Of a DNA stretch of 64,000 nt, positions 1 to 28,683 are shown one piece after another. Within the stretch, counting starts at the first letter, position 1; each line of letters opens with the position of its first letter. The stretch is taken from positions 128,001 through 192,000 of the forward strand of contig CAVTRY010000022.1 of NCBI GenBank assembly GCA_963737265.1, given 5' to 3'. A program made the translations under genes and the position numbers. The DNA comes from an uncultured delta proteobacterium (GTDB taxonomy: Bacteria; Myxococcota_A; Polyangia; Fen-1088). The notes below the pieces were generated by a model. That model was not told the origin of the DNA and made no database searches. It saw only the letters and a list, made by a program, of their open reading frames with translations.

Positions 1-707
1 ACATCGCTCGGACGCGCGATAAATTGCAGGACGCGCACGAGGGTCACGAGATCCGCGCCACCGGCCTTGGCAATCTCCTGCGCCAGGTTGCTATCGTCCA
101 TCTCCGCCTGGCGCAGGCGCACGTTGGACAATCCGCTTGACGCCACCCGCGCGGCGGCGCTGGCCAGTCGGGCCGCGCTGCGATCCACCGCAATCACGCG
201 ATCATAGAGCGGTGACAGCAGCGGCAAAAGCAATCCATCGCCGCAGCCGACGTCGACGGCGAGATGGTGCCCAGGCAACAGCGTGGACAGAAGAGGCAGG
301 AAAGGCTCGACCGAGACATTCGGGATGGGCGAGGGTTCGGCGGCGCCGTCGGCGAACCGCTGGCGCGCCGTCTCTTCCCGCTTGGCGACGATCTTGGGAA
401 TGCGCGCCAGCCGCCCTTCGGCCAGGCACAAGTCATTTCCAGTGCGCAGCGCCGCTAGCACGATAGGATTGTCCTTGGCCTTTGTCCGCAAAAGAATGCG
501 CGTGCCGTCCCTCCGCTCGCCGAGCAAGCCAGCATCCCGCAAGGGCTGGGTCTTGCGCGTGACCTGCGGCTGACTCTGCTTGAGCAGCGTGGACAGCTCG
601 CCCACGGTCAGCTCCTCCGCGTCGCACATTGCGAGAAGGCGCAAGCGATCTTCATCGCCGAGGAGGCGGAAGAGGTCAGCGTGCGCGCGAGCGGAAGTGG
701 CGGCCAC
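1..707 (-). CDS. ArsR-family HTH regulator fused to a SAM-dependent methyltransferase domain (SahR-like); 3' end outside the window
   Basis: Manual translation from GTG 707 (alternative in-frame ATG 728) gives ADLFRLLGDEDRLRLLAMC..ELTVGELSTLLKQSQPQVTR (ArsR HTH), then LAVDVGCGDG (SAM motif I). Absent from the ORF track because it is truncated. Confidence 0.85.
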   Translation of the reverse strand, partial: MAATSARAHADLFRLLGDEDRLRLLAMCDAEELTVGELSTLLKQSQPQVTRKTQPLRDAGLLGERRDGTRILLRTKAKDNPIVLAALRTGNDLCLAEGRLARIPKIVAKREETARQRFADGAAEPSPIPNVSVEPFLPLLSTLLPGHHLAVDVGCGDGLLLPLLSPLYDRVIAVDRSAARLASAAARVASSGLSNVRLRQAEMDDSNLAQEIAKAGGADLVTLVRVLQFIARPSD

Positions 708-879
708 GGATCTGTCATATGCTATCATGCGCAAGTATGCAAGTATGGCGGCGGGCGATGGATCCCTTGTTCGCTCAGTCGTGACACTTTCGCGCAGCCA
801 ACCATGGCATGTGGGAATCTCCGCTTGTTCGAGGGCCAGTCGTGGTAGTGGTAGGGGACCATCTCGGAGCGAGGGCGCG

Positions 880-1284
880 ATGAGCATCGAGCACGGATCC
901 AAAGTGGCAGGAAGGTCTCTATCTGGGAGATTCCCGGCGATAGTCTTGCCGATCGGTGCCGCCAAGCTAGACTCGCCGCCCTTGAAGGTGTTCCTCAGGA
1001 CGGCTCGGGGCGACGACCGGATGCCGATGCCGAGCCGAGCCACCGGAACGCCGGCCCTGGTCGCGACCCATCGCTATTGTTTCGGCGAGGTGTATCGCCA
1101 CCCCTGTTCCGAGGACAGCGACCTGCTCTCCTGCCACCGCTGCCATTTGTCCGCGGTGATTCCCAGAACGATTGCCACTTACGACAGTCTGGACGCGTAT
1201 TTTCGCGGGGCGCGCCAGCGAGTGGACGACTTCCGCGCGCAAGTCGGGTCGCTCGTGGCAAGCAAGACCGTTCACGAAGCGTGA
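880..1284 (+). CDS. Hypothetical protein, possible zinc ribbon (HxxC...CxxC)
   Basis: ATG 880 with GAGG upstream, in frame with ORF 580..1284; contains HRYC and CHRCH. Confidence 0.5.
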   Translation: MSIEHGSKVAGRSLSGRFPAIVLPIGAAKLDSPPLKVFLRTARGDDRMPMPSRATGTPALVATHRYCFGEVYRHPCSEDSDLLSCHRCHLSAVIPRTIATYDSLDAYFRGARQRVDDFRAQVGSLVASKTVHEA

Positions 1285-1359
1285 CGGTCGGCCGCACAAG
1301 TTTGGGGTGCGTGCCTGTGGTGCCGGAAGGTTGAATCCGCGGCTTCACGGACGGCCCGT

Positions 1360-2283
1360 TCAGCGGCCGAGCTCTTCGTCGATCCAATCCTCTAGACCGG
1401 GAAGGTCGAGCTCGTCGGTGTACCTGCGGCCGTTGATGAAAACGGCGGGCGTTCTGTGGATCTCCAGGCTGCGTGCTTCGGTCTTGTCCCGTTGCACGTG
1501 TCCGCGGACCTCTTCCGACCCGACGTCGCCGTACCAGCGCGAGAAGTCGAGGCCCATCTCCTTGGCCAGGCCCTCCAGCAAGGCTGGCGTAAGGTGCTGC
1601 GAGTTTTCCCAAACCTTGTCGCTGAACTGCCAGAACTTCCCCTGATTTTGCGCCGCTGTCGCGGCAAGTGCGGCATTGAGGGAATTGTTCGAGCTGATGG
1701 GGAAGTGCTTGAAATACAGGGTGATGTCGTTCGAGTATTTGGCCAAAAGTGCCGGCAGCAGGGTCTGCGCCTCTTTGCAATGCGGGCACTCGTAGTCGGC
1801 GAACTCCACCAAGGTCACACGCCCGGACGGGCCGCCCTTGTGGGGTGCCTGCGACACGTCGATGTACGGGACGCGAGGCGCGCGAAAGCGCTGCTCTATC
1901 TTCCCGCCGATTTCGGAGTCCGAGAACCCCGAATCGGCCAGACGCGCGACGTAGCGGACGGCATAGAACGAAGCCCGGCAGGAACCGTCGTGCTGGACCG
2001 AGTAGAGCAGGCTGTGGCCCTTGCCACACGCCGAGGGTTCGCGGTTGACCACTTGGTCGAAGACCTTGCGTTTGAAATCATCCAGCTTGCCAAGGTCGAT
2101 GCCCGCGGAAGAAGAATCGCCCGTCGCCGAAGGTTTGCCGGCCTTGTCTGCGACCGCGGCCGGGGCGGAATTGGGCGATGTCGTCTGGGACTGCGCGGCT
2201 CTTTTCGAGCATGCGCCCGCGACAACGAGCACGCCGACGACCAGCACGTTGCGCAAAAGCCCGCGTGATTCTTGCTTCTTCAT
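1360..2283 (-). CDS. DsbA/thioredoxin-fold lipoprotein
   Basis: Lipobox VAGAC; EFADYECPHC active site; TPAVFINGR cis-Pro motif. Confidence 0.9.
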   Translation of the reverse strand: MKKQESRGLLRNVLVVGVLVVAGACSKRAAQSQTTSPNSAPAAVADKAGKPSATGDSSSAGIDLGKLDDFKRKVFDQVVNREPSACGKGHSLLYSVQHDGSCRASFYAVRYVARLADSGFSDSEIGGKIEQRFRAPRVPYIDVSQAPHKGGPSGRVTLVEFADYECPHCKEAQTLLPALLAKYSNDITLYFKHFPISSNNSLNAALAATAAQNQGKFWQFSDKVWENSQHLTPALLEGLAKEMGLDFSRWYGDVGSEEVRGHVQRDKTEARSLEIHRTPAVFINGRRYTDELDLPGLEDWIDEELGR

Positions 2284-2318: not shown

Positions 2319-3236
2319 TTACACCCGCTCGATTGTCGTCGCGCGCTCGCAGCGCAGGCCGTCAGGCTTGGTGACCGCGCCGTGGATGCGGGCCACGGCG
2401 CCGCGCTCGAGCTCGTCGAGGGCTTGATTGTCGGGCGAACGGTCGCGGTCGAGGCGGGTGAGGAGCAAGCGGCCGGCGGGACCGCAGGCGAAAAAGCGCA
2501 GGCGGCCCTTGTCTTTCATGGCATCGCTCACGATGCGGAAGAGCGCGCGATCCGTGCTGGCGCTGCCGCCCTTGCGCAGAACGAGGTAGCTGAAGTCGAC
2601 GCGCGAACGGCCTTGCGCGATGGCGGCGGCGCTCATGTGGCAGAAGTCGCGCTCGCGCGCCAGCGCGGGGCAAGCGGCCTGCCAAAGACAGGGCGCGACC
2701 ACGAACAGGCCGGCGGCGAGCAAGCGGTCGCGCACGGCGAGCAGATCGCGCGAGGTGGCGCGTAGGGCGGGCTCGACGAGAATGCAGGTGCCGGTGGGAT
2801 CGAGGAGCTCGCGGGACCAGCCCAGCACCAAGCGCGCGCGGCCTTCCACGTCGAGCGTTCCAGCTAGCTCGTTGAGCAAATGGGCGGCGACGATCAGATC
2901 GAAGCGGCCTTCCACGCCGGCGGGTCGCGGCGAACGCGTGACATCCGCGCGCAGCACCCCCGGGCCGGCAACCTTGTCGACGGCGACCATCACGACGCCG
3001 CTCCAGCGGGCGCGAATCGCCTCGCCGACGGCGCCGGTGCCGGCACCGAGATCGAGCACGCGGTGCGGTTCAGGCAATCCGCTCTCGGCGAAGATGCTTG
3101 CCAGCGCCGCGACGGTGCGCGGTGCGATCTCGCGCTCGTAGTCGCGGCGAATCTCGGGCTCGGCCAGGTACGAGGCGCCGACCAGATCGCGCGCACCGAC
3201 AAGTCCGCGATGGATCCGGCTCGGCGGTCTCGGCAA
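2319..3236 (-). CDS. Rsm22/METTL17-family SAM-dependent methyltransferase
   Basis: VLDLGAGTG, LLNEL, LVEPA, VVAPC-x5-CP..DFCH, FSYLVLRK. Confidence 0.8.
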   Translation of the reverse strand: MPRPPSRIHRGLVGARDLVGASYLAEPEIRRDYEREIAPRTVAALASIFAESGLPEPHRVLDLGAGTGAVGEAIRARWSGVVMVAVDKVAGPGVLRADVTRSPRPAGVEGRFDLIVAAHLLNELAGTLDVEGRARLVLGWSRELLDPTGTCILVEPALRATSRDLLAVRDRLLAAGLFVVAPCLWQAACPALARERDFCHMSAAAIAQGRSRVDFSYLVLRKGGSASTDRALFRIVSDAMKDKGRLRFFACGPAGRLLLTRLDRDRSPDNQALDELERGAVARIHGAVTKPDGLRCERATTIERV

Positions 3237-3241
3237 GAGGG

Positions 3242-4279
3242 CTAGCCCATTTTCTTGAAGAAGATGCCCTTGATGTCGTTGAAGGTGACGACCACCAGCA
3301 CAAGCAGCAAGACCATGATGCCGACCATGTGGATCTTGGTCTCGATGGCTGGGCTGACGTCGCGGCGGCGCAGGGCGCTGATGCCCACGAAGAAGATTCT
3401 GCCACCGTCGAGGCCGGGCAGGGGCAGGAGGTTGAACACGCCGAGCGCGACCGAGATGAGAATGAGAATTTCGAGGAACTTGAGCACACCCTGCTTGGCG
3501 GCACCGGCCATTTCGCGGGCAATGCCGAGCGGCCCGGTGAGGCCGCCTTCAATTTTACGCGTGATGAGATCCCAGATGTTCTTGAGCAACACCGCCGAGA
3601 TCGCCACCGGCATGACGACCGCTTCCTTGACGGAGTCGAGGAAGGGACCGGGGGCGCGCGCCTGACCGAAGCGCACGCCGATCATATAGGCGGCGCTGGG
3701 CGAATCCTTGCGCGGCGCAACCGACAAGGTTATGGGCTTCCCCGCGCGCACGACTTGGAGCTCGATGGCCGAGCCACCCGAGGCGCGCACGACCTGGGTG
3801 ACGTCAACCGGCTTGGCCACCGGCTTGCCGCCCACGCCCGCGACGATGTCGCCAGGAAGAAGCCCGACCGCCTGAGCCGCGCTGCCCGGCACGACTTCGT
3901 CGACGGTGGTGGTGCCGGTGTACTGGCCGTAGGCGAGCAGCACGAAGAAGCCGATGAGCACGGCGGTCAGATAGTTGGCAGCGGGGCCGGCGACCAGCAC
4001 CAAGAAGCGCATCCAGCGTGGCCGATTGGGATAGACGTACGGATCGGCGTGGTCGAATTCCTCGTGCGGGTTCATGCCGGTCACTTGCACGAAGCCGCCG
4101 AGCGGGATAGGCGCGATCTGGTAAATCGTGTCGCCGCGCTTGAACGAGACGAGCGGGTTGCCGAAGCCGATGGAGAAGCGCTCGACGCGCATCCCGCACA
4201 GACGCGCGGCCAGGAAGTGACCCGCCTCGTGCAGCACGATGAGGAGCGCAAGGCCGACAATGGCGATCAGAATGGACAT
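3242..4279 (-). CDS. rseP: M50 site-2 protease with PDZ domain (RseP paralogue 1)
   Basis: HEAGH, FSIGFG, AGPAAN, NLLPLPGLDGG. Confidence 0.9.
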   Translation of the reverse strand: MSILIAIVGLALLIVLHEAGHFLAARLCGMRVERFSIGFGNPLVSFKRGDTIYQIAPIPLGGFVQVTGMNPHEEFDHADPYVYPNRPRWMRFLVLVAGPAANYLTAVLIGFFVLLAYGQYTGTTTVDEVVPGSAAQAVGLLPGDIVAGVGGKPVAKPVDVTQVVRASGGSAIELQVVRAGKPITLSVAPRKDSPSAAYMIGVRFGQARAPGPFLDSVKEAVVMPVAISAVLLKNIWDLITRKIEGGLTGPLGIAREMAGAAKQGVLKFLEILILISVALGVFNLLPLPGLDGGRIFFVGISALRRRDVSPAIETKIHMVGIMVLLLVLVVVTFNDIKGIFFKKMG

Positions 4280-21329: not shown

Positions 21330-22580
21330 ATGGATGTTCGCTGCGAGCGCTGCCAAACCGAATACGAAGTCGAGGACGCTAGGGTAAGCAACCTCGGCAC
21401 CGAGGTGCAGTGTAGCGAATGCGGCCACCGCTTCGTAGCCAGGCGACCCAGCGGCGGCGAAGCGAAGTCCAGAAGCCCGGACGAGTGGCTGCTCGAAACT
21501 GTCGCTGGCCAATCCCATCGGTTTCAGAGCTCCTTCGTCCTGCAAAAGTGGATCATCGAAGGCCGGGTGAAACGTGAAGACAGGGCTTCGCACAGGGGGC
21601 GACCTGGGCAACCGCTGGGTGAAATCGCCGAACTGGCTCCGTTTTTCACCATCGCGGACGACGCTGTCAGGGCAGACGCCTCGCCAGCCACGCCGGCCCC
21701 GGTGATTTCGCCATCCATACCTGCGAAAGCTCCCCCGAATCGGCCCGCGGTGGCGGGGCCGGCAGCTGCGCTGCCGGTCGCTGGCCGACCGGAAGGCGAA
21801 GCTCCGACGGAGCGTCCTGCCTCACCGTCCCCGCTTCCCTCGCCCGCCGATAGCCTGGGTGGGGTCCACCTGGGTGCATTTCCCCAGGCCTCTGATCCGG
21901 GCGAAACGGAGAGCATTCGCATCGGATCGCGGAAGTCTCGCGGCTTTCTCAAGCTGATGCTTACCACGCTCGTGGCGGCCGCGGTCGCGTACGCAGGCAT
22001 CGCATGGCAGCACCAACGCCTGCGCTCCGCGATGATTTCTTCGTCTGGCACGGCCGCAGGGGAATCGCTGCGAGATCACGCGCGTGCAAGCGAACCGACA
22101 CCGCGCGCGCCAGCGGACGACTCGGTGTCGGCACAGTCGCCCGACCGGGGCGACAGCGTGGCTCGAAGCGGACCGTTGGTGGAGCCCGAAGCCGAGAGCG
22201 GCCGGGCGAAAAGCGCTCTTCGAGGCGGGAAGAGGGCCATGGCGATGCGTAAGCCGAAGCCCGAGGCGGGCCACGCCACACGCCCGATTTCGCAGCCAAA
22301 CCGGGCGCAGCCGGAAGCGCCTGAAGAACTGGCAGCGCAGGGCTTTGCGGCCCTGACCCATCACCAGTACCCGCAAGCCATCGGGCTTTTCAAGCGCGCG
22401 CTCGTCGGTAGCCCGCCCAACGGCACCGCCCGCTTCGGTCTTGCGGAAGCCTATCGGGCAAGCGGCCAGAAGATGGCGGCGCTTCTCGCCTACCGGCGCT
22501 ACGTCGACGCCTTTCCCGCTGGACCCAACGCAATCGCCGCCCGAACCCAAATCCGACTCCTCGAAGGCAAGCAGCGCTAG
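21330..22580 (+). CDS. MJ0042-type zinc-ribbon / TM / TPR protein
   Basis: MDVRCERCQTEY...VQCSECGHRF, Pro-rich linker, TM, TPR-like C-terminus. Confidence 0.85.
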   Translation: MDVRCERCQTEYEVEDARVSNLGTEVQCSECGHRFVARRPSGGEAKSRSPDEWLLETVAGQSHRFQSSFVLQKWIIEGRVKREDRASHRGRPGQPLGEIAELAPFFTIADDAVRADASPATPAPVISPSIPAKAPPNRPAVAGPAAALPVAGRPEGEAPTERPASPSPLPSPADSLGGVHLGAFPQASDPGETESIRIGSRKSRGFLKLMLTTLVAAAVAYAGIAWQHQRLRSAMISSSGTAAGESLRDHARASEPTPRAPADDSVSAQSPDRGDSVARSGPLVEPEAESGRAKSALRGGKRAMAMRKPKPEAGHATRPISQPNRAQPEAPEELAAQGFAALTHHQYPQAIGLFKRALVGSPPNGTARFGLAEAYRASGQKMAALLAYRRYVDAFPAGPNAIAARTQIRLLEGKQR

Positions 22581-22660: not shown

Positions 22661-24433
22661 TCATTCGGAATGCTCGCGGCGCAAAATCAGGTATCCATCG
22701 GTCTCGAAATCGACTGCGAACGTCGGTTGCAGAAAGCGCACGGGATCGCCTCGCGTCGAGTAGCGATCGAGCACCACGTGGGTCACCTCCGGGGCAAGAA
22801 TCTCGAGCGGCAAGGGCGGAGCGTTCAGTCGCGCCACGACCGCGTTGTCGATCCAGCGCCCATCGGGCAACGGCTCGCCCAGGCGCAGCGCATACCCGAT
22901 GTCCTTGCGACAAACGGGCACGTCACCGGGGCGAAGTGTGTTGCGTAGTCGCGCCACAACCGGCGCGAAACTCGGCTCCGCGTAGTTCGGCCAATTGGGT
23001 GCCGTGGTGTACGTCGCCTGTTGCTTCCAGGCCAGCCCCAACTGCGCCCCCAAGGTTCCGATGATGAGAGCGGCGGTGAGAATCGGTTCGGGCGCACGCC
23101 AACGACGGCGGTTGAGCACGAACAAGATCCCGACGAGGGCCGCACCCAGCACCAAGTAGAAGAGCATGAGAACGCTCGCGGTGGCGTGCTGGGAGACCAC
23201 CAGGTCGTATACGGTCGACACGGGATCGCCTAGCGCGACCACTTGCACCCAGGCGACCGCAATCATCAGGATGCCGGAGACCGCCAGCCTTCGCCAGGGA
23301 GGACACGACAACCGCGGCGCCAGCCACAGCGCAATCAGCAGCGTCAACGGCGCGTACGCCGGATACTCGTACTTGAGAAACCACCCACTCGGCCGAACAA
23401 TCTTCGCGAGAATCAAGAGAAACAGCACGAAGATCGTCAAGAGGTCGACCGGCTCGGGCGCTCGGCGTCGCCATACTTGGCGCACGCGCGATGCCAGGGC
23501 GACAAGGCCGAGCGACGCCCAGAAGGGCGAAACCCACGTCGCGCTGTGAACCAAGGTCTTTCCAATAGTGACGAAGGTGCCGGTGAACCCGCGGCGGGCC
23601 ACGACCTGCGTGAGTACGCCGTCCGCCTTGGCCAGACGGCGCTCGATCGAGAAGGCGATGAAGTAGTCGGCCGGCACGTGCAGCGCCCGGCACAATGCCA
23701 TCCACAATGCCGCAAACAGCGCCACGCCGAAAAGCGCCGCGATCAACAAGGCGGCGACCCGGCGCCAGCGACGGGCCAGGATTTCGTATCCGGCAACGGT
23801 GACGAGGATGTAGGGAGCGGCAAGCTCCTTGGCCCAGGAAACGAGGCTGAGCAGGAGAGCGAGACGCAGGACCCGCCCGAGCCACGAAAGCCCTGGACGT
23901 TCCATGCGTAGGTACTCGTGCAGGAAAAACAACAGCGCCGTCGTCATGACGGTGTTGTCGATATCGAGCATCAGCCCCTCCTGCAGAAGGAAGGGATTGG
24001 CGAGAAACAGAATCGCCATCAGGCTGGCCGTCCACGCGTACCTTTCCGCCTGAACAATCCGGCGCAGGATGCGCAACAAGAGCCACAGGTCGAGAGCCAA
24101 GCACGCGGCGCCGGTCAGCCGGGCTGCCCAGTTTTCCGGCCCGAACAATCGATAGCACAGCCCAATGAGAAAGACATAGATCGAGGCGTGCCAAAGTCCC
24201 AGCTGAACGTGCGGTTGGCCGCCCGAGTTGTATAGCCAGCGATCGGATTCCGGGATGAGGCGCTCGGGCACGTCGCCCATGTAGTAAATCGGCCGCCCAG
24301 TCCGCGCAACCCCCAAACCCGCGGCCGCGCACTCAGCCTCGTCGGTCGACGGCGGCTTGTCCATCGCCGCCGCGCCAGCGACCAGGAACACCACGACGGC
24401 CAACCCGACCAGCAAGAGCGTGCTCCGGTTCAT
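22661..24433 (-). CDS. GT-C fold (ArnT/PMT, family 39-like) membrane glycosyltransferase
   Basis: Early DE motif, HASIY..., WAARL, many TM helices. Confidence 0.7.
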   Translation of the reverse strand: MNRSTLLLVGLAVVVFLVAGAAAMDKPPSTDEAECAAAGLGVARTGRPIYYMGDVPERLIPESDRWLYNSGGQPHVQLGLWHASIYVFLIGLCYRLFGPENWAARLTGAACLALDLWLLLRILRRIVQAERYAWTASLMAILFLANPFLLQEGLMLDIDNTVMTTALLFFLHEYLRMERPGLSWLGRVLRLALLLSLVSWAKELAAPYILVTVAGYEILARRWRRVAALLIAALFGVALFAALWMALCRALHVPADYFIAFSIERRLAKADGVLTQVVARRGFTGTFVTIGKTLVHSATWVSPFWASLGLVALASRVRQVWRRRAPEPVDLLTIFVLFLLILAKIVRPSGWFLKYEYPAYAPLTLLIALWLAPRLSCPPWRRLAVSGILMIAVAWVQVVALGDPVSTVYDLVVSQHATASVLMLFYLVLGAALVGILFVLNRRRWRAPEPILTAALIIGTLGAQLGLAWKQQATYTTAPNWPNYAEPSFAPVVARLRNTLRPGDVPVCRKDIGYALRLGEPLPDGRWIDNAVVARLNAPPLPLEILAPEVTHVVLDRYSTRGDPVRFLQPTFAVDFETDGYLILRREHSE

Positions 24434-24513
24434 CGGATTCGAGTATCACACAACTCTTCAATCGAGCGTTGAGGCGGACCGTGGTCGGCGCTTGTGCAGG
24501 GTCAGGCAACAAG

Positions 24514-26163
24514 TTAAGGTCCTGCAATTCGGAGTTGGGGGCCATGAATCGCTGCCTCGACGGCGGCAAAGTCGGCGGTCGCCTCGGGCACGGCGGCGCG
24601 GCCGCGCTCGAGCAGGGCGCAGGCGGCGTCGCGGCGGCCAGCCTCGGCCAGGACCACGGCCAAGTCGTGATAGGGCTCGTGCCACTTAGGCAGAAGGGCA
24701 ATGGCGCGCTCGATCGCCTCGATGCCCTCGTCGAGCTTTCCCTGGCGCGCGAGGGATAAGCCAAGGCCATTGTGGGCGAAGGCGTGATTTGGATTCTGTG
24801 CCAGCGCGCGCCGGTTGTAGTCTTCGGCGCCTGGGTAATCACACAGCATGAAGCAAACGAAGCCAAGCAGATCGAGAACGGTGAGAGCGCTCGGCGCTTT
24901 TTCGAGAGCAGACAAGAGAAGTCGGTGCGCCTCCTCGAAGCGGCGAGCATCCGCGGCTTCGCGCGCCTTCTGCACCAGCGTCGGCACATCGGCGGATCCT
25001 TCTGTGATCGCCGAGCAGGGCACGATCTTGCCGCCCAAGAACGCCGTCTCGGCTTCGGTCGGATTCTCGGTTAGCAAATCGAGGCGTCCGTGCTTTTGTG
25101 CCTGGTAGTAGAAGCAGAAGGGATTGCCCTCGCCGCCTAGGGCGGCGTGACAGTGGACGGTCCACGTGCAGCCGCCGCGGCAGAAGTCGCGGTAGCGGCA
25201 AACTCGGCAAAATCCCGTGAGCTTGCCTTCGCCGGCCGTCCGGTTGTAGGCGAAGGCGCCCGCCGCGTTCCAGATCTCGGCCAGCGGTTTGTCACGAACG
25301 TTGCCTTCGACGAAGCGAGACTCGCCGTGCATGGACGACGGCAGGGACAGGCAGCCCTTCACGTTGCCGTTGCTCTCGATGCCCACCACCTGGCAACCCG
25401 CGCGGCATCCGATCCAAAACGGTATCTCGCCGCCGTCGTCGCGCAGGCCTTGCTCGGGCTTGCCGTAATAGCCGATGTCGTCGGCGGCGACGGTAAAGAA
25501 TTGGCGCGTGTTGGAGCGACACAAGGCTGCCAGCTCGGGCACCAGCCACAGCAGATCCGCCGGATCCACCACCAGGTCGCGATGCAGTCCCATGGTTCCC
25601 GACGGCGTCGCCAGCTGCACCTGCATGGAGAACACGCCGCGAGCCGCGATGAAATCCCGCAGCTCGCGCAAGATGCGCTGGTTGAGCTTGTTCACGGTGG
25701 TATTGACCGCAACTGGCAGTCCGCCGGCCACGCAGGCATCGATGGCCGCGACGACGCGATCGAACGAGCCCGGCTGGCGAAATTCGTCGTGCTCGCTCTC
25801 AAAGCCGTCAAGGCTGAAGGCCGCGCCACACAGACCGGCCGCCTTCGCGCGCTCGACGTACGCTACGTTCCAGTGCCAGCCGTTCGAGATCAGATTGACC
25901 TTGATACAATGATCGACGAGGCGTTTGCCGATGCGATCCCAATCCGGGTTGAGCGTGGGCTCGCCACCGCTCAGGGTTACCCGCCGACAGCCGAGCGCCG
26001 CGAGTTGGTCGGCGACGCGCAGGTTTTCCTCCAGGCTCATCTCGTCGTCGCGCCGGCTGCCCGCGAAGGAGCCGCAGTGCTTGCAGCGCAGGTTGCAGGC
26101 CAGCGTCAGCTCCCAGACACAGGCCCGAGGCGCGAAACCGACTTGTTTCAGAATCTCGAGCAT
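24514..26163 (-). CDS. Radical SAM/SPASM peptide maturase, splicease (PlpX)-like, with C-terminal TPRs
   Basis: VWELTLACNLRCKHCGS (CxxxCxxC), GGEP, DIGYYG, WIGCRAG..GIESNGNVKGCLSLP, FCRVC..FCRGGCTW..GNPFC; about 4 TPR-like repeats. Confidence 0.9.
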   Translation of the reverse strand: MLEILKQVGFAPRACVWELTLACNLRCKHCGSFAGSRRDDEMSLEENLRVADQLAALGCRRVTLSGGEPTLNPDWDRIGKRLVDHCIKVNLISNGWHWNVAYVERAKAAGLCGAAFSLDGFESEHDEFRQPGSFDRVVAAIDACVAGGLPVAVNTTVNKLNQRILRELRDFIAARGVFSMQVQLATPSGTMGLHRDLVVDPADLLWLVPELAALCRSNTRQFFTVAADDIGYYGKPEQGLRDDGGEIPFWIGCRAGCQVVGIESNGNVKGCLSLPSSMHGESRFVEGNVRDKPLAEIWNAAGAFAYNRTAGEGKLTGFCRVCRYRDFCRGGCTWTVHCHAALGGEGNPFCFYYQAQKHGRLDLLTENPTEAETAFLGGKIVPCSAITEGSADVPTLVQKAREAADARRFEEAHRLLLSALEKAPSALTVLDLLGFVCFMLCDYPGAEDYNRRALAQNPNHAFAHNGLGLSLARQGKLDEGIEAIERAIALLPKWHEPYHDLAVVLAEAGRRDAACALLERGRAAVPEATADFAAVEAAIHGPQLRIAGP

Positions 26164-26177
26164 CGGGCAAACAACGT

Positions 26178-26633
26178 CTAGGACTTCGCTTCCGGAAAGA
26201 TCGCCATGTAGATCACGACACCGTGTCCGATGTCCGCATCCGCGGCGGCATCGGGTGGCTGCTGGGCCATGTAGCGCACCGCCGGCCCGCTGTCCGGCAA
26301 TTGCTGCGCCATGTACATCGGCGCCATGTAAAGCGCGGCTGCGCCTTGCGCATCCGCGCCAGCGTCGGGCAGCGGTGCCATGTACTTCGCGATCATGCCG
26401 GTGTCTCGGGCGCTGCCGCCGGCCTCGCTGAGATCTGCGTCCGGTGCAAGCTGCTGGTCCGCGGTCGCGACGTCTTTCGCGGTCGCGTGGCCGCCATCGT
26501 CACCCGAGTCCATGGTGGTGCTTCCGCAGCCACCCAAGGCGAGCCCCAAGCCCAATGTCGCTGGCATCAGCATATTGCGCAGTCGGATCTGGAGGAAACG
26601 CTCCACCCGCTGTCGCATTTCTCGCTCTCGCAT
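26178..26633 (-). CDS. Putative multi-core precursor lipoprotein with five YMA motifs
   Basis: ATG 26633 after GAAGGAG; lipobox LGGC; AKYMAP, ALYMAP, PMYMAQ, VRYMAQ, VIYMAI; ends 14 bp before the rSAM gene. Confidence 0.8.
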   Translation of the reverse strand: MREREMRQRVERFLQIRLRNMLMPATLGLGLALGGCGSTTMDSGDDGGHATAKDVATADQQLAPDADLSEAGGSARDTGMIAKYMAPLPDAGADAQGAAALYMAPMYMAQQLPDSGPAVRYMAQQPPDAAADADIGHGVVIYMAIFPEAKS

Positions 26634-26703
26634 GCTCGCTCCTTCACGTAGGTGAATAACGCCGCGGCCAGAGATTGCGGGCCGCCAACCGTCAGCATAG
26701 ATC

Positions 26704-26719
26704 AGCAAAACAGGTGCCG
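26704..26719 (-). promoter_or_regulatory. Putative sigma54 -24/-12 promoter
   Basis: Minus strand reads cGGCACctgttTTGCT, matching GGCAC-N5-TTGCW, about 70 bp upstream of the precursor ATG. Confidence 0.6.
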
Positions 26720-26726
26720 CCCGAAA

Positions 26727-26740
26727 TCGGCACGTGCCGA
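26727..26740. promoter_or_regulatory. Perfect 14-bp palindrome, possible operator
   Basis: TCGGCACGTGCCGA immediately upstream of the -24 box. Confidence 0.35.
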
Positions 26741-26819
26741 GTCCAGCGCGCTAATAGTTTCAACCAGTTGACCCCGAAAGGCCGACCACGAGTCTCAGAT
26801 TTCCGAGGATAGTCAGCAT

Positions 26820-27776
26820 TCACGACCATGAATTGGAGTTATCAACCGCCTCGACGAGAAACTTCACCTCGGGTTGGGGTGGTTCGTGGTTGGCCCGATG
26901 GGGGCGAAGCAAGATCGGCAGGGCGCGGATGAGTAGAAACAATTTGCGTGCCTTGCTGGTGTAGGCGCGCGTGGTGACCGAATCGTAGCCATTCTTCGCG
27001 ACGACGCGGCCAATTTCGGCGTAAATCAGACGGGCGGCGCGGACGCCGAGTCGACAGTCGGACGGATACATCGTTATGCCGCGATCGGCCCGGCGGTAGC
27101 AGGCGTCGGCCAGCGCCAGCACACGCTTGACCACACTGGCAAGGGCGGGACTAGGCGCGGGACGCGCGAGCAGCTCGTCCACGTCGACCCCAGCCTCCGC
27201 TAGCCAATCCTGGGGCAAATAGACGCGACCCGCGCGGGCGTCTTCGCCGACGTCGCGGCAGATGTTGGTAAGCTGCATGGCCAAGCCCAGATCGCAGGCG
27301 CGCGCCAGCAGGCCGGGCGACCGCTCGCCGAACAGCAAGGTCATCATCACGCCCACGGTGGACGCCACCCGCGCGCAATACGCTTCCAGATCTTGCTGGG
27401 TGGAATAGCGCCGCCGCTCGGCGTCCCACTCGAAGCCCTCGATCAGGGCGCGCGGGATCGCCTGCGGAATTCCGTGAGCCTCCACGACGCTGCAGAACGA
27501 ACGGTCGACAGCGTTTTCCTCGGGCTGGCCGGCGTAGATGCGATCCAGTCGCTCGTGCAAACGGACGATGGCGGCTCTGACGTCGGTTCCCAAATCCACG
27601 GCGTCGTCGGCGACGCGGCAGAAGGCGTACAGCGCCGCGGTACCGTCGTGCAGCCGCTTCGGCAGCAAGCGGGAGGCGGCGACGAAGCTCTTGGATCCAT
27701 TGCGCAGGATCTCGTGGCAGACGCGGAGATCTGCTCGCCGCTGTTCCTCGCTGCTGGCTGGGGCGTTTACGCGCAT
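26820..27776 (-). CDS. crtB: Phytoene synthase
   Basis: GSKSF..AS, YAFCRVADDAVD, YCARVA, LGLAMQLTNICRDVGEDA..GRVYLP. Confidence 0.92.
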   Translation of the reverse strand: MRVNAPASSEEQRRADLRVCHEILRNGSKSFVAASRLLPKRLHDGTAALYAFCRVADDAVDLGTDVRAAIVRLHERLDRIYAGQPEENAVDRSFCSVVEAHGIPQAIPRALIEGFEWDAERRRYSTQQDLEAYCARVASTVGVMMTLLFGERSPGLLARACDLGLAMQLTNICRDVGEDARAGRVYLPQDWLAEAGVDVDELLARPAPSPALASVVKRVLALADACYRRADRGITMYPSDCRLGVRAARLIYAEIGRVVAKNGYDSVTTRAYTSKARKLFLLIRALPILLRPHRANHEPPQPEVKFLVEAVDNSNSWS

Positions 27777-27780
27777 CGCG

Positions 27781-28683
27781 CTAGCCGCAGTCGAGAGCGG
27801 AGCCCGACCGACCGGCAGCAGTTCGCTGGCGGATCTCTGGTGGGCATAGACGCGCCGCCGCGAGCGACAGAAAATCCTGAACGTCCCTGCGACCGCGGCA
27901 TTCCGGAATGGATTGCATGGCTTGACCAATGAGTCGGTCGAGTTGGGCGAGGGCTCCCGCAACGCCAAGATCCGCGACGGCGCTTGGCCGCGACTTATGG
28001 CCATCTTGATGGATGGGTTTGCCGAGGCGCCCCGATTCGCCGAGCGCGTCCGCGAGATCGTCCGCTACTTGGTAAGCCTCGCCGAGCTGTCCTCCGGTCG
28101 CGCGCCAGGCCTCGGGATCGGCGTCGCCGACAATGGCGCCGGCCACGGCAGCGGCTTCGAACAGCGCCGCGGTTTTCGCGTGATGGTAGGCCCGCACATC
28201 GACGCTGGGCTCGCTCTCCCATGCCTGGCCCGCGGCGATTCCAGCCGGCGCCCCTGCCGCACGCGCCAGCGCGCCCAAAATGGCCGCGGACTTGGCGGGC
28301 TGTGCGGCCACGTGGGATGAAACCGCATCGAACGCCATCACGATCAACGCGTCGCCGACCAGAATTGCTACCTCCTCGCCGAAGCGTTTGTGGAGCGATG
28401 GCTGTCCCCGCCGCAGCGACGCGTCGTCGAAACACGGCAGATCGTCCTGCACCAGGGATGCGCAATGAAACAGCTCAACGGCCGCTGCCGAGGCGTCGGC
28501 CAGGCCGGGATCCGGATCGTCATGCGCCCTGGCCACCGCGAGGCAAAGCCCGGGTCGCACCCGGCCGCCACCAGGAAACACGGCATAGCGGACCGCCGCC
28601 GCCAAGCGCTGGGGACACGGCGGCGCAGTGGCTGCCCGCACAGCCTGCTCCAGCGCTGCCTCGATCCTTGATTCGGGTTCCAT
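27781..28683 (-). CDS. crtE: Geranylgeranyl diphosphate synthase
   Basis: GGGRVRP, SLVQDDLPCFD..LRRG, KTAALF, YQVADD; adjacent to crtB. Confidence 0.88.
   Translation of the reverse strand: MEPESRIEAALEQAVRAATAPPCPQRLAAAVRYAVFPGGGRVRPGLCLAVARAHDDPDPGLADASAAAVELFHCASLVQDDLPCFDDASLRRGQPSLHKRFGEEVAILVGDALIVMAFDAVSSHVAAQPAKSAAILGALARAAGAPAGIAAGQAWESEPSVDVRAYHHAKTAALFEAAAVAGAIVGDADPEAWRATGGQLGEAYQVADDLADALGESGRLGKPIHQDGHKSRPSAVADLGVAGALAQLDRLIGQAMQSIPECRGRRDVQDFLSLAAARLCPPEIRQRTAAGRSGSALDCG

What the first reader, a model, noticed from the sequence alone, without database searches (positions are those of the whole stretch)
24514..26740. Splicease-like radical SAM/SPASM-TPR enzyme paired with a lipoprotein carrying five YMA cores: candidate new post-translational modification system
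Seen: a 151-aa ORF with a lipobox (LGGC) and an acidic low-complexity body in which every Tyr (5/5) lies in Y-M-A, mostly followed within 2-4 residues by P-D/E. The rSAM gene starts 14 bp downstream, and a sigma54-type promoter lies upstream. Established: the enzyme motifs (VWExTLxCxLxCxHCGS, GYYG, WxGCxAG..GIExxGxxKGCxSLP, CRGGCxW, GNPxC) resemble PlpX-type spliceases (TIGR03913-like), which excise tyramine from X-Y-G to install alpha-keto-beta-amino acids. Inference: the repeated motif here is YM, not YG, implying altered specificity or different chemistry (e.g. a Tyr-Met crosslink). The product would be a multiply modified, membrane-anchored, surface-displayed peptide.
Basis: partly seen in the sequence, partly recalled or inferred. 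Interest (0 to 1): 0.9.

Follow-up and report, generated by a model that had tools for sequence, protein, structure and literature searches.

The report
Splicease-like enzyme with YMA-repeat lipoprotein
A two-gene unit in a soil myxobacterium pairs an exported lipoprotein carrying five Tyr-Met-Ala sites with a radical-SAM enzyme related to the 'spliceases' that cut tyrosine out of protein backbones, so it is probably a new variant of that rare protein modification.

Summary
On the minus strand, a 151-aa ORF (26178-26633) has a lipobox (LGGC, Cys36), and all 5 of its Tyr lie in Y-M-A. A 549-aa radical SAM/SPASM-TPR gene (24514-26163) starts 14 nt downstream. A -24/-12 (sigma54-type) element lies 72 nt upstream of the ORF.

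The pair is a conserved cassette in Polyangia/Myxococcota. In 35 related precursors, 212 core Tyr give the consensus x-Y-[M>G,S,A]-A-P-x-P-D. The leader helix and the lipobox Cys are also conserved.

The enzyme's best family matches are TIGR03913 and the PlpX splicease family TIGR04103. Both score about 250 bits, far below their cut-offs, so it is a distinct branch.

Related cassettes carry canonical Y-G sites: Y-G-[IV]-P in the sister clade, and YG-type precursors nested inside the YMA clade. Met is therefore a replaceable residue, not a reaction partner.

A complex model (0.89; best control 0.00) places the leader helix on the enzyme and RYMAQQP in the barrel.

Best reading (0.55): a leader-dependent tyramine splicease with a relaxed +1 residue makes a multi-ketoamide lipoprotein. 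The chemistry is inferred, not shown. I file it as a new variant of a known kind. I could not read the main survey paper (Scott 2022).

The parts
26705..26719 (-). -24/-12 (sigma54-type) promoter-like element, CGGCACctgttTTGC, 72 nt upstream of the precursor ATG
   Evidence: 1 mismatch. A similar element lies 41-81 nt upstream of the precursor in 18 of 35 related loci, against 51 of 700 random windows.
26639..26645 (-). Ribosome-binding site GAAGGAG, 5 nt before the ATG
   Evidence: Read from the sequence.
26178..26633 (-). Precursor gene, 151 aa plus stop
   Evidence: Homologous upstream ORFs occur in related loci. No Pfam or NCBIfam family matches.
26574..26633 (-). Leader helix, residues 1-20 (MREREMRQRVERFLQIRLRN). 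It is conserved, and one face is predicted to bind the enzyme.
   Evidence: Invariant M1, E3, R7, R9 and near-invariant F13, L14, R19 in 16 precursors. Residues 1-3, 6, 9-10, 13-14 and 17-18 are in the modelled interface.
26526..26573 (-). Hydrophobic signal-peptide h-region and lipobox, residues 21-36 (MLMPATLGLGLALGGC)
   Evidence: P24, G28 and C36 are invariant. A lipobox-like tetrapeptide ends in Cys at residues 36-51 in 35 of 36 precursors.
26181..26525 (-). Acidic, Ala/Pro/Gly-rich core, residues 37-151, holding the five Y-M-A sites
26376..26384 (-). YMA site 1 (Y84; context AKYMAPLPD)
26322..26330 (-). YMA site 2 (Y102; ALYMAPM)
26307..26315 (-). YMA site 3 (Y107; PMYMAQQLPD)
26265..26273 (-). 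YMA site 4 (Y121; VRYMAQQPPD). The complex model places this site in the enzyme barrel.
   Evidence: precursor residues 115-128 are in the interface.
26202..26210 (-). YMA site 5 (Y142; VIYMAIFPE)
24514..26163 (-). Radical SAM/SPASM-TPR enzyme gene, 549 aa, starting 14 nt after the precursor stop
26074..26097 (-). CxxxCxxC radical-SAM cluster motif (C23, C27, C30)
   Evidence: Translation. These residues are invariant in 16 homologues.
24514..24966 (-). C-terminal TPR domain, about residues 400-549
   Evidence: Pfam TPR_1, TPR_2 and TPR_12 hits. It is fused in 16 related loci and is a separate ORF in L052 and L068.

Best explanation
This is a two-gene, sigma54-type-controlled modification cassette. 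The stated confidence is for the tyramine-excision chemistry. The pairing of enzyme with substrate, and export as a lipoprotein, I hold higher (about 0.9 and 0.7).

Proposed sequence of events:
1. The precursor is made in the cytoplasm.
2. Its N-terminal amphipathic helix (residues 1-20) docks on the SPASM side of the radical SAM enzyme. This helix is an unusually long n-region of a lipoprotein signal peptide.
3. The repeated x-Y-M-A-P-x-P-D segments are fed one after another into the enzyme barrel.
4. By analogy with its closest characterised relatives (PlpX-type spliceases), the enzyme excises a tyramine equivalent (C8H9NO, -135.07 Da) from each Tyr. It joins the Tyr carbonyl to the carbonyl of the preceding residue, which turns K83, L101, M106, R120 and I141 into alpha-keto-beta-amino (ketoamide) residues.
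5. The residue after Tyr supplies only the amide nitrogen. Replacing the canonical Gly by Met is therefore a change of site grammar, not of chemistry.
6. The modified protein is then exported. It is lipidated at Cys36 and cut by signal peptidase II, which removes the leader without a dedicated RiPP protease.
7. The product is an acidic, disordered, lipid-anchored polypeptide with up to five electrophilic ketoamides, plausibly a tethered protease inhibitor.

Shown: gene structure, conservation of the pair, the motif grammar, enzyme family relations and the model of the complex.
Inferred: the reaction itself, export and lipidation, and the inhibitor role.
For: 1. Enzyme relations. TIGR03913 scores 256 bits and TIGR04103 (the PlpX family) 252 bits, over residues 10-376. 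The next family scores 128 bits. Radical_SAM, SPASM and TPR domains are found.

2. Conserved pairing.
- Of 80 genome loci holding relatives, 35 have a same-strand upstream ORF with the leader and a Cys by my pattern. At least 9 more have a divergent upstream precursor.
- None of the window's other neighbours (PMT_2, squalene/phytoene synthase, polyprenyl synthetase, Zn-ribbon/TPR) is found in any of 87 loci. Flanks are shared only among close kin.

3. Site grammar. For 212 core Tyr in 35 precursors:
- +1: M 117, G 27, S 16, A 13, L 10.
- +2: A 139, G 26.
- +3: P 94.
- +5: P 105.
- +6: D 61.

4. Canonical splice-type sites in kin.
- YG-type precursors (L026, L037, L046: VYGIGG, LYGQAG, DYGVGG) are nested inside the clade of 41 (support 1.0) that holds the window.
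- L028, L029 and L043 mix YG with YM, YS or YK.
- The sister clade has 70 core Tyr with +1 G 35, A 20, M 4 and +3 P 46.
- TIGR03913-like enzymes of the same phylum sit beside precursors such as PPYGIPPDDAG, VYGAP and LYGVP, which also carry lipobox or TM-like N-termini.
- A proven PlpA2 splice tag reads PIRP[L/G]YGLPI (PMC10533398, passages). Y-G-L-P there parallels Y-G-[IV]-P in the sister clade and Y-M-A-P here.

5. Complex model.
- ipSAE is 0.89, 0.89 and 0.84 in three runs. The best of 3 controls is 0.00.
- The mark was reached by 58 of 80 solved complexes and 2 of 110 mismatched pairs.
- The runs agree in at least 62% of their contacts. The partner's pLDDT is at least 41.
- My own alignments and riding ligands were used, so the calibration holds only roughly.
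- The interface is precursor residues 1-18 (one helix face) plus 115-128.
- Residues 122-126 lie against enzyme residues 16, 63, 88-92, 112-115, 152-154, 179-181 and 223-225.
- This matches published models for binary (type II) spliceases, where a leader helix occupies the Y-protein site and the XYG site lies in the active centre (PMC11414181, part 1 of the text read).

6. Export.
- A lipobox-like tetrapeptide occurs in 35 of 36 precursors, at residue 36 in most.
- Sister-clade precursors carry NF033662 acidic double-disulfide repeats in 4 of 4 tested. This implies an oxidising, extracytoplasmic destination.

7. Ketoamides are protease-inhibiting pharmacophores, and tested spliceotides inhibit proteases (PMC11414181; PMC9811515, passages).
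Against: - The window's precursor has no Y-G (0 of 5). Every splicease site described in the papers I could read is X-Y-G.
- The enzyme scores far below the curated cut-offs of both families: 256 against 591.75 and 252 against 725.
- I could not put a characterised splicease in the tree. None of the 20 sampled representatives passed a cut-off either. The claim 'nearest characterised relatives' therefore rests on HMM scores alone.
- Radical SAM/SPASM enzymes often change chemistry within related clades.
- Pro precedes Tyr at 29 of 212 sites. Splicing there would need an N-alkyl beta-residue, which is untested.
- The complex model shows placement, not chemistry. The partner's fold confidence is low (pLDDT 41-44).
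- No mass data exist.
- Export and lipidation are read from sequence only. Gly at the -2 lipobox position and a 36-residue signal are both atypical.
Confidence: 0.55

Rival explanations
1. The enzyme and substrate pairing is the same, but the Tyr-directed radical chemistry is different. Options include a three-residue cyclophane crosslink from the Tyr ring to C-beta of the +2 residue (Y-x-A, triceptide-like), beta-hydroxylation, epimerisation, or another backbone rearrangement.
For: - Tyr and the +2 residue are the best conserved core positions. Tyr is at 212 of 212 by construction, and +2 is A at 139 plus V, S, I, T at a further 34 of 212. The sister clade has +2 A, I or V at 51 of 70.
- The enzyme is below both splicease-family cut-offs.
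- No Y-G occurs in the window's precursor.
- That triceptide maturases act on repeated aromatic-x-x motifs is recalled, not taken from a call.
Against: - +2 is Gly, which has no C-beta, at 26 of 212 sites.
- The enzyme's HMM similarity to the two splicease-related families is about twice that to any other family among the best 25 shown of 73. The only crosslink-forming maturase named there, WgkB, scores 85 bits.
- Canonical Y-G-x-P sites in nested and sister cassettes match a proven splice tag.
Confidence: 0.25
2. The precursor is a multi-core RiPP precursor rather than a stable lipoprotein. After modification and export, the repeats are cut apart (for example around P-D-A-G) into several small ketoamide peptides, which are released.
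For: - The repeat number varies from 2 to more than 10 among relatives, as in multi-core precursors.
- The core is disordered and low in complexity.
- Spliceotides so far are treated as peptides whose native end products are unknown (PMC9811515, passages).
Against: - No protease or peptidase-transporter gene is conserved beside the pair.
- The lipobox Cys is conserved in 35 of 36 precursors.
- Sister-clade precursors are built of folded, disulfide-bonded repeat modules, which look like proteins rather than peptide arrays.
Confidence: 0.2
3. A Tyr-Met crosslink at each Y-M pair.
For: All five Tyr in the window are followed by Met. Met is the commonest +1 residue family-wide, at 117 of 212.
Against: - 95 of 212 sites lack Met at +1 (G, S, A, L, I, Q and others).
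- Whole precursors have none: L026, L037, L046, L038 and L039. Their enzymes lie in the same clade.
Confidence: 0.04
4. The small ORF is not the enzyme's substrate, and the adjacency is incidental.
For: No family match for the ORF. Its composition is of low complexity.
Against: - The pair is the only conserved unit across loci.
- The genes are 14 nt apart.
- The leader is conserved.
- The complex model scores 0.89 against 0.00 for the controls.
Confidence: 0.03

Closest known systems
Spliceotide spliceases: PlpX/PcpX (type I, with the Y protein) and RhaX/RcsX/RasX (type II, binary); NCBIfam TIGR04103 / IPR026482
   Same: - A radical SAM enzyme with a SPASM domain, and strong HMM similarity (252 bits over residues 14-353).
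- The substrate is encoded next to the enzyme, and Tyr is the invariant core residue.
- Pro lies at +3, as in the PlpA2 tag Y-G-L-P.
- A binary layout without a Y protein, with a leader helix predicted to bind the enzyme, as published for RhaA/RhaX.
   Different: - The score is far below the 725-bit cut-off.
- The site reads Y-M-A, not Y-G.
- The leader is an extended lipoprotein signal peptide, not a Nif11 or NHLP leader.
- There are five or more sites per precursor.
- The enzyme has a C-terminal TPR domain.
- The hosts are Myxococcota.
- No peptidase-transporter lies nearby.
TIGR03913, the GDL motif peptide-associated radical SAM/SPASM maturase
   Same: - It is the best-scoring family (256 bits).
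- Closer relatives of this family (400-524 bits) occur in 74 of 401 sampled genomes of the same phylum. Those inspected sit beside signal or lipobox-bearing precursors with Y-G-x-P sites.
   Different: - The window's enzyme is below the 591.75-bit cut-off, and it lacks the last ~100 profile positions (match 16-380 of 477).
- None of the 401 genomes had a match over the cut-off.
- I found no paper describing this family's chemistry.
Sister-clade cassettes: the same kind of rSAM with NF033662 'acidic double-disulfide repeat-containing protein' precursors
   Same: - The enzymes are 47-52% identical.
- The precursors have a helical leader (..LL.YLD.VC..LD..), a lipobox-like Cys and one Tyr site per repeat, x-Y-[G/A]-[A/I/V]-P-x-E.
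   Different: - The precursor is transcribed divergently.
- The repeats are Cys/Asp-rich folded modules.
- The +1 residue is G or A rather than M.
- The window's precursor has no Cys in its core and no NF033662 match.
TIGR04133, a radical SAM/SPASM family named rSAM_w_lipo
   Same: It is the third-best NCBIfam match (128 bits). The model's short name points to an adjacent lipoprotein. That reading of the name is mine.
   Different: The similarity is much weaker, and the family's partner and chemistry were not examined here.
Triceptide (three-residue cyclophane) radical SAM maturases acting on repeated aromatic-x-x motifs (recalled; no call)
   Same: Repeated short motifs centred on an aromatic residue in a precursor next to a radical SAM/SPASM enzyme.
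   Different: No such family appears among the best 25 NCBIfam matches. Gly at +2 in 26 of 212 sites cannot take a C-beta crosslink.

Membership tests
Tyramine spliceases (PlpX family, TIGR04103) | Radical SAM CxxxCxxC cluster motif plus a SPASM domain with auxiliary-cluster cysteines | tested here: met
   C23, C27 and C30, and C253, C257, C271, C319, C322, C328, C332 and C350, are invariant in 16 homologues. Pfam finds Radical_SAM and SPASM.
Tyramine spliceases (PlpX family, TIGR04103) | Whole-protein score at or above the curated cut-off (725 bits) | tested here: not met
   252.3 bits.
Tyramine spliceases (PlpX family, TIGR04103) | Adjacent precursor with X-Y-G splice sites | tested here: not met
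   - 0 of 5 Tyr in the window's precursor are followed by Gly.
- In relatives, YG occurs at 27 of 212 sites in the same clade and at 35 of 70 in the sister clade.
Tyramine spliceases (PlpX family, TIGR04103) | Loss of C8H9NO (-135.07 Da) with formation of an alpha-keto-beta-amino residue | not testable with these tools
   This needs co-expression and LC-MS/MS.
Tyramine spliceases (PlpX family, TIGR04103) | Activating helix bound to the enzyme, either a Y protein (type I) or a leader helix (type II) | tested here: inconclusive
   - No Y/RRE gene or domain was seen.
- The model puts leader residues 1-18 on the enzyme, with a score of 0.89 against 0.00 for the best control.
- This is a model, not a measurement.
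TIGR03913 (GDL motif peptide-associated maturase) | Whole-protein score at or above the curated cut-off (591.75 bits) | tested here: not met
   256.4 bits, matching profile positions 16-380 of 477.
TIGR03913 (GDL motif peptide-associated maturase) | Adjacent GDL-motif peptide | tested here: not met
   The window's precursor holds no G-D-L (translation). I do not know the motif's definition beyond the family's name.
Bacterial lipoproteins | A signal peptide with a positively charged n-region, a hydrophobic h-region and a lipobox [LVI][ASTVI][GAS]C | tested here: met
   - The sequence reads R19..N20, then MLMPATLGLGLAL, then L-G-G-C36.
- Gly at -2 is outside the strict pattern (recalled) but inside the looser pattern I scanned with, which 35 of 36 precursors meet.
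- The n-region is unusually long, at about 20 residues.
Bacterial lipoproteins | Lipidation by Lgt and cleavage by signal peptidase II | not testable with these tools
   This needs globomycin or lipid-labelling experiments.
NF033662 acidic double-disulfide repeat proteins | A match to the 32-residue repeat model | tested here: not met
   There is no match for the window's precursor or for L019, L022 and L026. Four of 4 sister-clade precursors match, at 46-166 bits.

The most novel reading that the evidence does not exclude
A family of sigma54-controlled myxobacterial lipoproteins in which the signal peptide's extended n-region doubles as the RiPP leader.
- A splicease variant that no longer needs Gly after Tyr installs up to five (in relatives, ten or more) alpha-keto-beta-amino 'warheads'. 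Their side chains are Lys, Leu, Met, Arg and Ile.
- Sec/Lsp processing then removes the leader.
- The cell ends up with a lipid-anchored, multi-specificity protease-inhibitor brush on its envelope.

This would be the first native end product and physiological role for protein splicing of this kind, and a new Gly-free splice-site grammar.
Probability: 0.3. Interest if true: 0.8.

Novelty: new variant of a known kind. Interest (0 to 1): 0.62.

Why it matters
Tyramine splicing is the only known way in which cells put beta-amino acids with an alpha-keto group into ribosomal proteins. It is already used for protein labelling and for protease-inhibitor design.

All sites described in the papers I could read are X-Y-G. 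The survey of the field mined genomes by YG frequency (review passage), and such a search would pass over YMA-type precursors.

If this enzyme splices at Y-M-A:
- The site grammar is wider than thought, with Y-[M/S/A/G]-A-P.
- New splice tags become available.
- The residue after the ketoamide (the P1' position for a protease) can be varied.

The precursor architecture also suggests an answer to an open point. A review states that the final spliceotide products of native hosts remain elusive. Here the product would be a lipoprotein matured by the general secretion machinery.

If the chemistry turns out to be different, the family is a sizeable untouched group. It comprises 875 proteins at E <= 1e-20 among 8000 scored, and 17 of 401 sampled genomes of the phylum have a close homologue. 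It has a clean two-gene test system.

Tried and rejected
- **Neighbouring genes as part of the system.** The PMT_2-like membrane protein (22661-24433), squalene/phytoene synthase (26820-28004), polyprenyl synthetase (27781-28683) and Zn-ribbon/TPR protein (21330-22580) gave no tblastn match in any of 87 related loci. I rejected them.
- **Labelling the tree with true family members.** Twenty representatives spread over the tree were scanned and none passed a cut-off; the best was P0219 at 473 bits for TIGR03913. A scan of 401 genomes of the phylum with TIGR03913 also gave 0 over the cut-off. No characterised splicease sequence could therefore be placed in the tree.
- **Solved structures.** Only TPR proteins and distant radical SAM enzymes (SkfB, PqqE, MoaA) matched. 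No splicease structure was found.
- **The key survey paper.** Scott et al. 2022, Chem 8:2659, is not held. I know it only through passages of papers that cite it. Supplements are closed.
- **Literature searches that found nothing relevant.**
  - 'acidic double-disulfide repeat' / NF033662 / TIGR03913 / 'GDL motif peptide' gave 1 unrelated paper.
  - spliceotide + lipoprotein gave 0.
  - radical SAM + lipobox + SPASM gave 0.
  - splicease + Myxococc gave 4 papers, 1 listed, judged unrelated from its title and abstract only; I did not open it.
- **Sigma-70 promoter scan.** It found 0 sites in 24300-27000. One terminator-like hairpin at 26733-26714 overlaps the -24/-12 element and is within chance expectation.
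- **ESM Atlas.** It returned only an unnamed 'hypothetical protein' cluster of 66 members, with Myxococcota the commonest phylum (known for only 1 member).
- **Reads.**
  - One metatranscriptome run holds three contigs, 90-95% alike, over the precursor and parts of the enzyme gene. These come from a relative, and DNA carry-over is not excluded. I take this as a weak hint of transcription only.
  - Parts of the stretch without cover in these runs say nothing.
- **TPR genes next to sister-clade precursors.** They were seen only in L052 and L068. A look at ORFs in six more loci was inconclusive.


Full report
**What is there**

Both genes lie on the minus strand.

- The small ORF runs from ATG 26633 to stop 26178 and encodes 151 aa. 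A GAAGGAG ribosome-binding site lies 5 nt upstream.
- The ORF listing extends the ORF to a TTG at 26708. Sixteen homologues all align from the Met of MRERE, so the ATG is the start.
- The protein reads as follows:
  - a charged helix-like stretch, residues 1-20;
  - a hydrophobic stretch ending in L-G-G-C36, which holds the only Cys;
  - an acidic Ala/Gly/Pro-rich body in which all five Tyr read Y-M-A.
- None of 200,000 shuffles of the protein reached five YMA; the maximum was three.
- The enzyme gene starts 14 nt after the stop (26163) and encodes 549 aa. It has the CxxxCxxC motif, a SPASM domain and C-terminal TPR repeats.
- A -24/-12 element, CGGCACctgttTTGC, lies at 26705-26719, which is 72 nt upstream of the ATG.
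  - Alone it would mean little, because such matches are at chance level in the window (88 against 76 expected).
  - However, an element with the GG and GC dinucleotides and at most two mismatches lies 41-81 nt upstream of the precursor in 18 of 35 related loci.
  - It is present in 14 of the 15 closest loci, against 51 of 700 random 200-nt windows.

**The pair is a conserved cassette**

- The enzyme has 875 relatives at E <= 1e-20 among 8000 scored candidates. About 540-aa TPR-fused forms are 65-91% identical, and about 380-aa forms without TPR are near 60% identical. The named ones are from Polyangia or 'Deltaproteobacteria' MAGs.
- A scan of species-representative genomes gave 568 relatives, of which the best 80 loci were kept.
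- In 35 of these 80 loci, my pattern found a same-strand ORF ending just upstream of the enzyme, with an M-[RKS]-E-[RK]-[DE]-[IM]-R leader and a Cys after a hydrophobic stretch.
  - The other 45 loci failed the pattern. L021 and L040 among them still show YMA-type cores.
  - At least nine others (L052, L060, L063, L071, L072, L076, L080, L085 and, on the same strand, L066) have a precursor of a related kind. It is mostly transcribed divergently.
- None of the window's other neighbours recurs in any of 87 loci. Flanks are shared only between close kin. The unit is therefore precursor plus enzyme.
- The TPR domain is fused in 16 loci and occurs as a separate ORF in L052 and L068.
- In a sample of 401 genomes of the phylum, 17 (including this one) have an enzyme at E <= 1e-90.
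- The window's own genome has two more copies, on contigs C7 and C11.

**Site grammar**

Across 35 precursors of the window's clade (34 loci plus the window; L066 was left out because it belongs to the sister clade) there are 212 core Tyr.

| Position | Residue counts (of 212) |
|---|---|
| +1 | M 117, G 27, S 16, A 13, L 10 |
| +2 | A 139, G 26 |
| +3 | P 94 |
| +5 | P 105 |
| +6 | D 61 |
| -1 | L 50, P 29, V 26, K 18, R 15, E 15 |

- YMA is the commonest form (94 of 212), but Met is replaceable.
- Whole precursors use Y-G (L026, L037, L046) or mix YG with YM, YS or YK (L028, L029, L043).
- A lipobox-like tetrapeptide ending in Cys occurs in 35 of 36 precursors, at residue 36 in most.

**Where the enzyme belongs**

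- The NCBIfam hits are TIGR03913 at 256 bits (cut-off 591.75) and TIGR04103 at 252 bits (cut-off 725). The next family, TIGR04133, scores 128 bits.
- TIGR04103/IPR026482 is the family of PlpX, the founding tyramine splicease (PMC11002830, passages).
- I built a FastTree (LG+gamma, midpoint-rooted) of 215 sequences: the window, 78 loci and 136 representatives at the 50% identity level.
  - Two loci and 13 representatives were dropped because they were shorter than 330 aa.
- The tree puts the window in a clade of 41 with support 1.0.
  - 32 of its members have a recognised precursor.
  - The YG-type cassettes are nested among the YMA-type ones.
- The sister group holds the divergent cassettes.
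- None of 20 representatives sampled across the rest of the tree reaches either cut-off. The window's family is one branch of a broad PlpX/TIGR03913-like radiation. No characterised enzyme could be placed in my tree.

**Kin with canonical sites**

- Sister-clade precursors match NF033662, the 'acidic double-disulfide repeat', in 4 of 4 tested. The window's precursor and three clade-mates do not match.
- Their 70 core Tyr have +1 G 35, A 20, M 4; +2 A 23, I 16, V 12; +3 P 46; and +5 E 32.
- Enzymes closer to TIGR03913 (400-524 bits) occur in 74 of 401 sampled genomes of the phylum.
- I scanned eight such loci. In six (L089, L090, L091, L093, L094, L096) the enzymes lie beside small ORFs with signal or lipobox-like N-termini and sites such as AIYGMP, VYGAP, LYGVP and PPYGIPPDDAG. 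L092 and L095 showed none.
- PPYGIPPDDAG differs from the window's YMAPLPDAG mainly by G->M.
- The proven PlpA2 splice tag is PIRP[L/G]YGLPI (PMC10533398, passages). Y-G-L-P, Y-G-[IV]-P and Y-M-A-P form one series.

**Model of the complex**

I modelled enzyme residues 1-390 (alignment A1) with the precursor (alignment A2), SAM and three 4Fe-4S clusters.

- The scores were 0.89, 0.89 and 0.84. The best of three controls was 0.00.
- The mark was reached by 58 of 80 solved complexes and 2 of 110 mismatched pairs.
- The runs agree in at least 62% of their contacts, and the partner's pLDDT is at least 41.
- The calibration holds only roughly here, because I used my own alignments and riding ligands.
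- The confident interface is one face of the leader helix (residues 1-3, 6, 9-10, 13-14, 17-18) against enzyme residues around 243-259, 271-273, 323-334 and 365-366.
- It also includes precursor residues 115-128 (SGPAVRYMAQQPPD). Residues 122-126 lie against strand-end residues of the barrel: 16, 63, 88-92, 112-115, 152-154, 179-181 and 223-225.
- This is the arrangement published for binary spliceases, where a leader helix sits at the site that the Y protein occupies in type I systems and the splice site sits in the active centre (PMC11414181, first part of the text read).
- The model supports binding and placement. It cannot show the chemistry.

**Most likely mechanism**

- In splicing, all of Tyr except C1 is removed. 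C1 is then joined to the carbonyl of the preceding residue (PMC9811515, passages).
- The following residue supplies only its amide nitrogen. Met in place of Gly is therefore a steric change, not a chemical one.
- My reading is as follows:
  1. Five tyramine excisions take place in the cytoplasm, guided by the leader helix.
  2. The protein is then exported by Sec, lipidated at Cys36 and cleaved by signal peptidase II.
  3. This cleavage doubles as leader removal and explains why no protease or transporter gene accompanies the pair.
- The product would carry ketoamides with Lys, Leu, Met, Arg and Ile side chains.
- Ketoamides inhibit serine and cysteine proteases, and tested spliceotides do so. 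A tethered inhibitor is a reasonable guess for a member of a phylum rich in secreted proteases. That last clause is general knowledge, not a call.
- My confidence is 0.55 for the chemistry, about 0.9 for enzyme-substrate pairing, and about 0.7 for export as a lipoprotein.

**Against this reading, and the rivals**

- The window has no Y-G site.
- The enzyme is below both cut-offs.
- Radical SAM/SPASM clades can switch chemistry.
- Pro at -1 (29 of 212 sites) is untested for splicing.
- There are no mass data.
- A Tyr-to-(+2) crosslink or another Tyr-directed reaction remains possible (0.25). It is weakened by Gly at +2 in 26 of 212 sites.
- A Tyr-Met crosslink is unlikely (0.04), because 95 of 212 sites lack Met.
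- Whether the product stays a lipoprotein or is cut into small peptides is open (0.2 for the latter).

**Novelty**

- In the searchable library I found nothing on these cassettes.
- The survey of spliceases (Scott et al. 2022) is not held, and supplements are closed.
- According to a review passage, that survey mined by YG frequency and reported 189 genera and 27 confirmed pairs.
- It may therefore include the YG-type myxobacterial relatives, while YMA-type precursors would score low in such a screen.
- I file the finding as a new variant of a known kind. If that paper already types this clade, the novelty falls to a new member of a known kind.

**Weak side evidence**

- A wetland metatranscriptome run holds three contigs that are 90-95% alike.
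  - One covers the precursor at 26254-26676, with depth 7.6.
  - Two cover parts of the enzyme gene, with depths 2.6-2.9.
  - The upstream end at 26676 lies about 29 nt downstream of the -12 element.
- The contigs come from a relative, and DNA carry-over is not excluded.

Noticed in passing
Own genome: L002 (G000:C7:168603-172532), precursor L002:969-1448 (+): This is a second cassette in the same genome.
- It has the same kind of leader (MKEKELRERIEQFL...GLGLSVSGC), but its cores read PPYLLVA, AYVPIPP and IYVFYMQ, like those of L038, L039 and L041.
- The enzyme ORF (53% identical over residues 16-325) runs on into a long low-complexity tail instead of a TPR domain.
   Followed up: partly
Own genome: L003/L004 (G000:C11:634346-638499): This third copy looks decayed or mis-assembled.
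- The enzyme reading frame is split by a frameshift and one TGA (56-60% identical).
- The Gly-rich ORF upstream (SYTG, MYAA, LYAA) lacks the leader.
- That ORF also overlaps, in another frame, the 3' end of a Ser/Thr kinase gene.
   Followed up: partly
Window enzyme residues 227-228 (about 25480-25485, minus strand); alignment: Two residues just before the DIGYYG motif co-vary with the residue after Tyr in the partner.
- They read A/S-D in the 19 YM-type enzymes listed.
- They read G-H in L026 and L037, S-H in L046, and G/A-H in 7 of 9 sister-clade enzymes.
- Exceptions are L060, L066, L028 and L029.
- There are few independent lineages, so this is only a lead.
   Followed up: partly
L052 and L068 (minus strand, about 2500-3430): A homologue of the window's TPR tail (42-43% identical) is a separate ORF next to the divergent precursor. 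The TPR module therefore travels with the system whether fused or free. A look at six more sister-clade loci was inconclusive.
   Followed up: partly
L089 (G376:C408:1-4095), 201-1386 (+): Three tandem small ORFs lie upstream of a TIGR03913-like enzyme (524 bits). Each has a signal-like N-terminus, one Y-G site (TLYGPP, AIYGMP, ALYGIV) and a conserved C-terminal helical part. This looks like a multi-precursor spliceotide-type locus.
   Followed up: no
L090, L091, L093, L094, L096: Precursor-like ORFs beside TIGR03913-like enzymes begin with a CxxC...CxxC zinc-ribbon-like segment. A TM or lipobox stretch and one or two Y-G-x-P sites follow.
   Followed up: no
Window 22661-24433 (-): A 590-aa multi-pass membrane protein lies directly downstream of the enzyme gene. 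It has a weak PMT_2 (GT-C glycosyltransferase) match of 25.4 bits, just under the 26.1 cut-off. It is not conserved with the cassette.
   Followed up: yes
Window 26820-28683 (-): A squalene/phytoene synthase gene and a polyprenyl synthetase gene lie upstream of the cassette, and their listed ORFs overlap by about 220 nt. The real start of the synthase is probably further downstream.
   Followed up: no
L025:717-884 (-): A second leader-like match to the window's precursor (46% over residues 1-56) lies about 2.2 kb upstream of the main cassette, on the opposite strand. This suggests an extra precursor gene in that locus.
   Followed up: no
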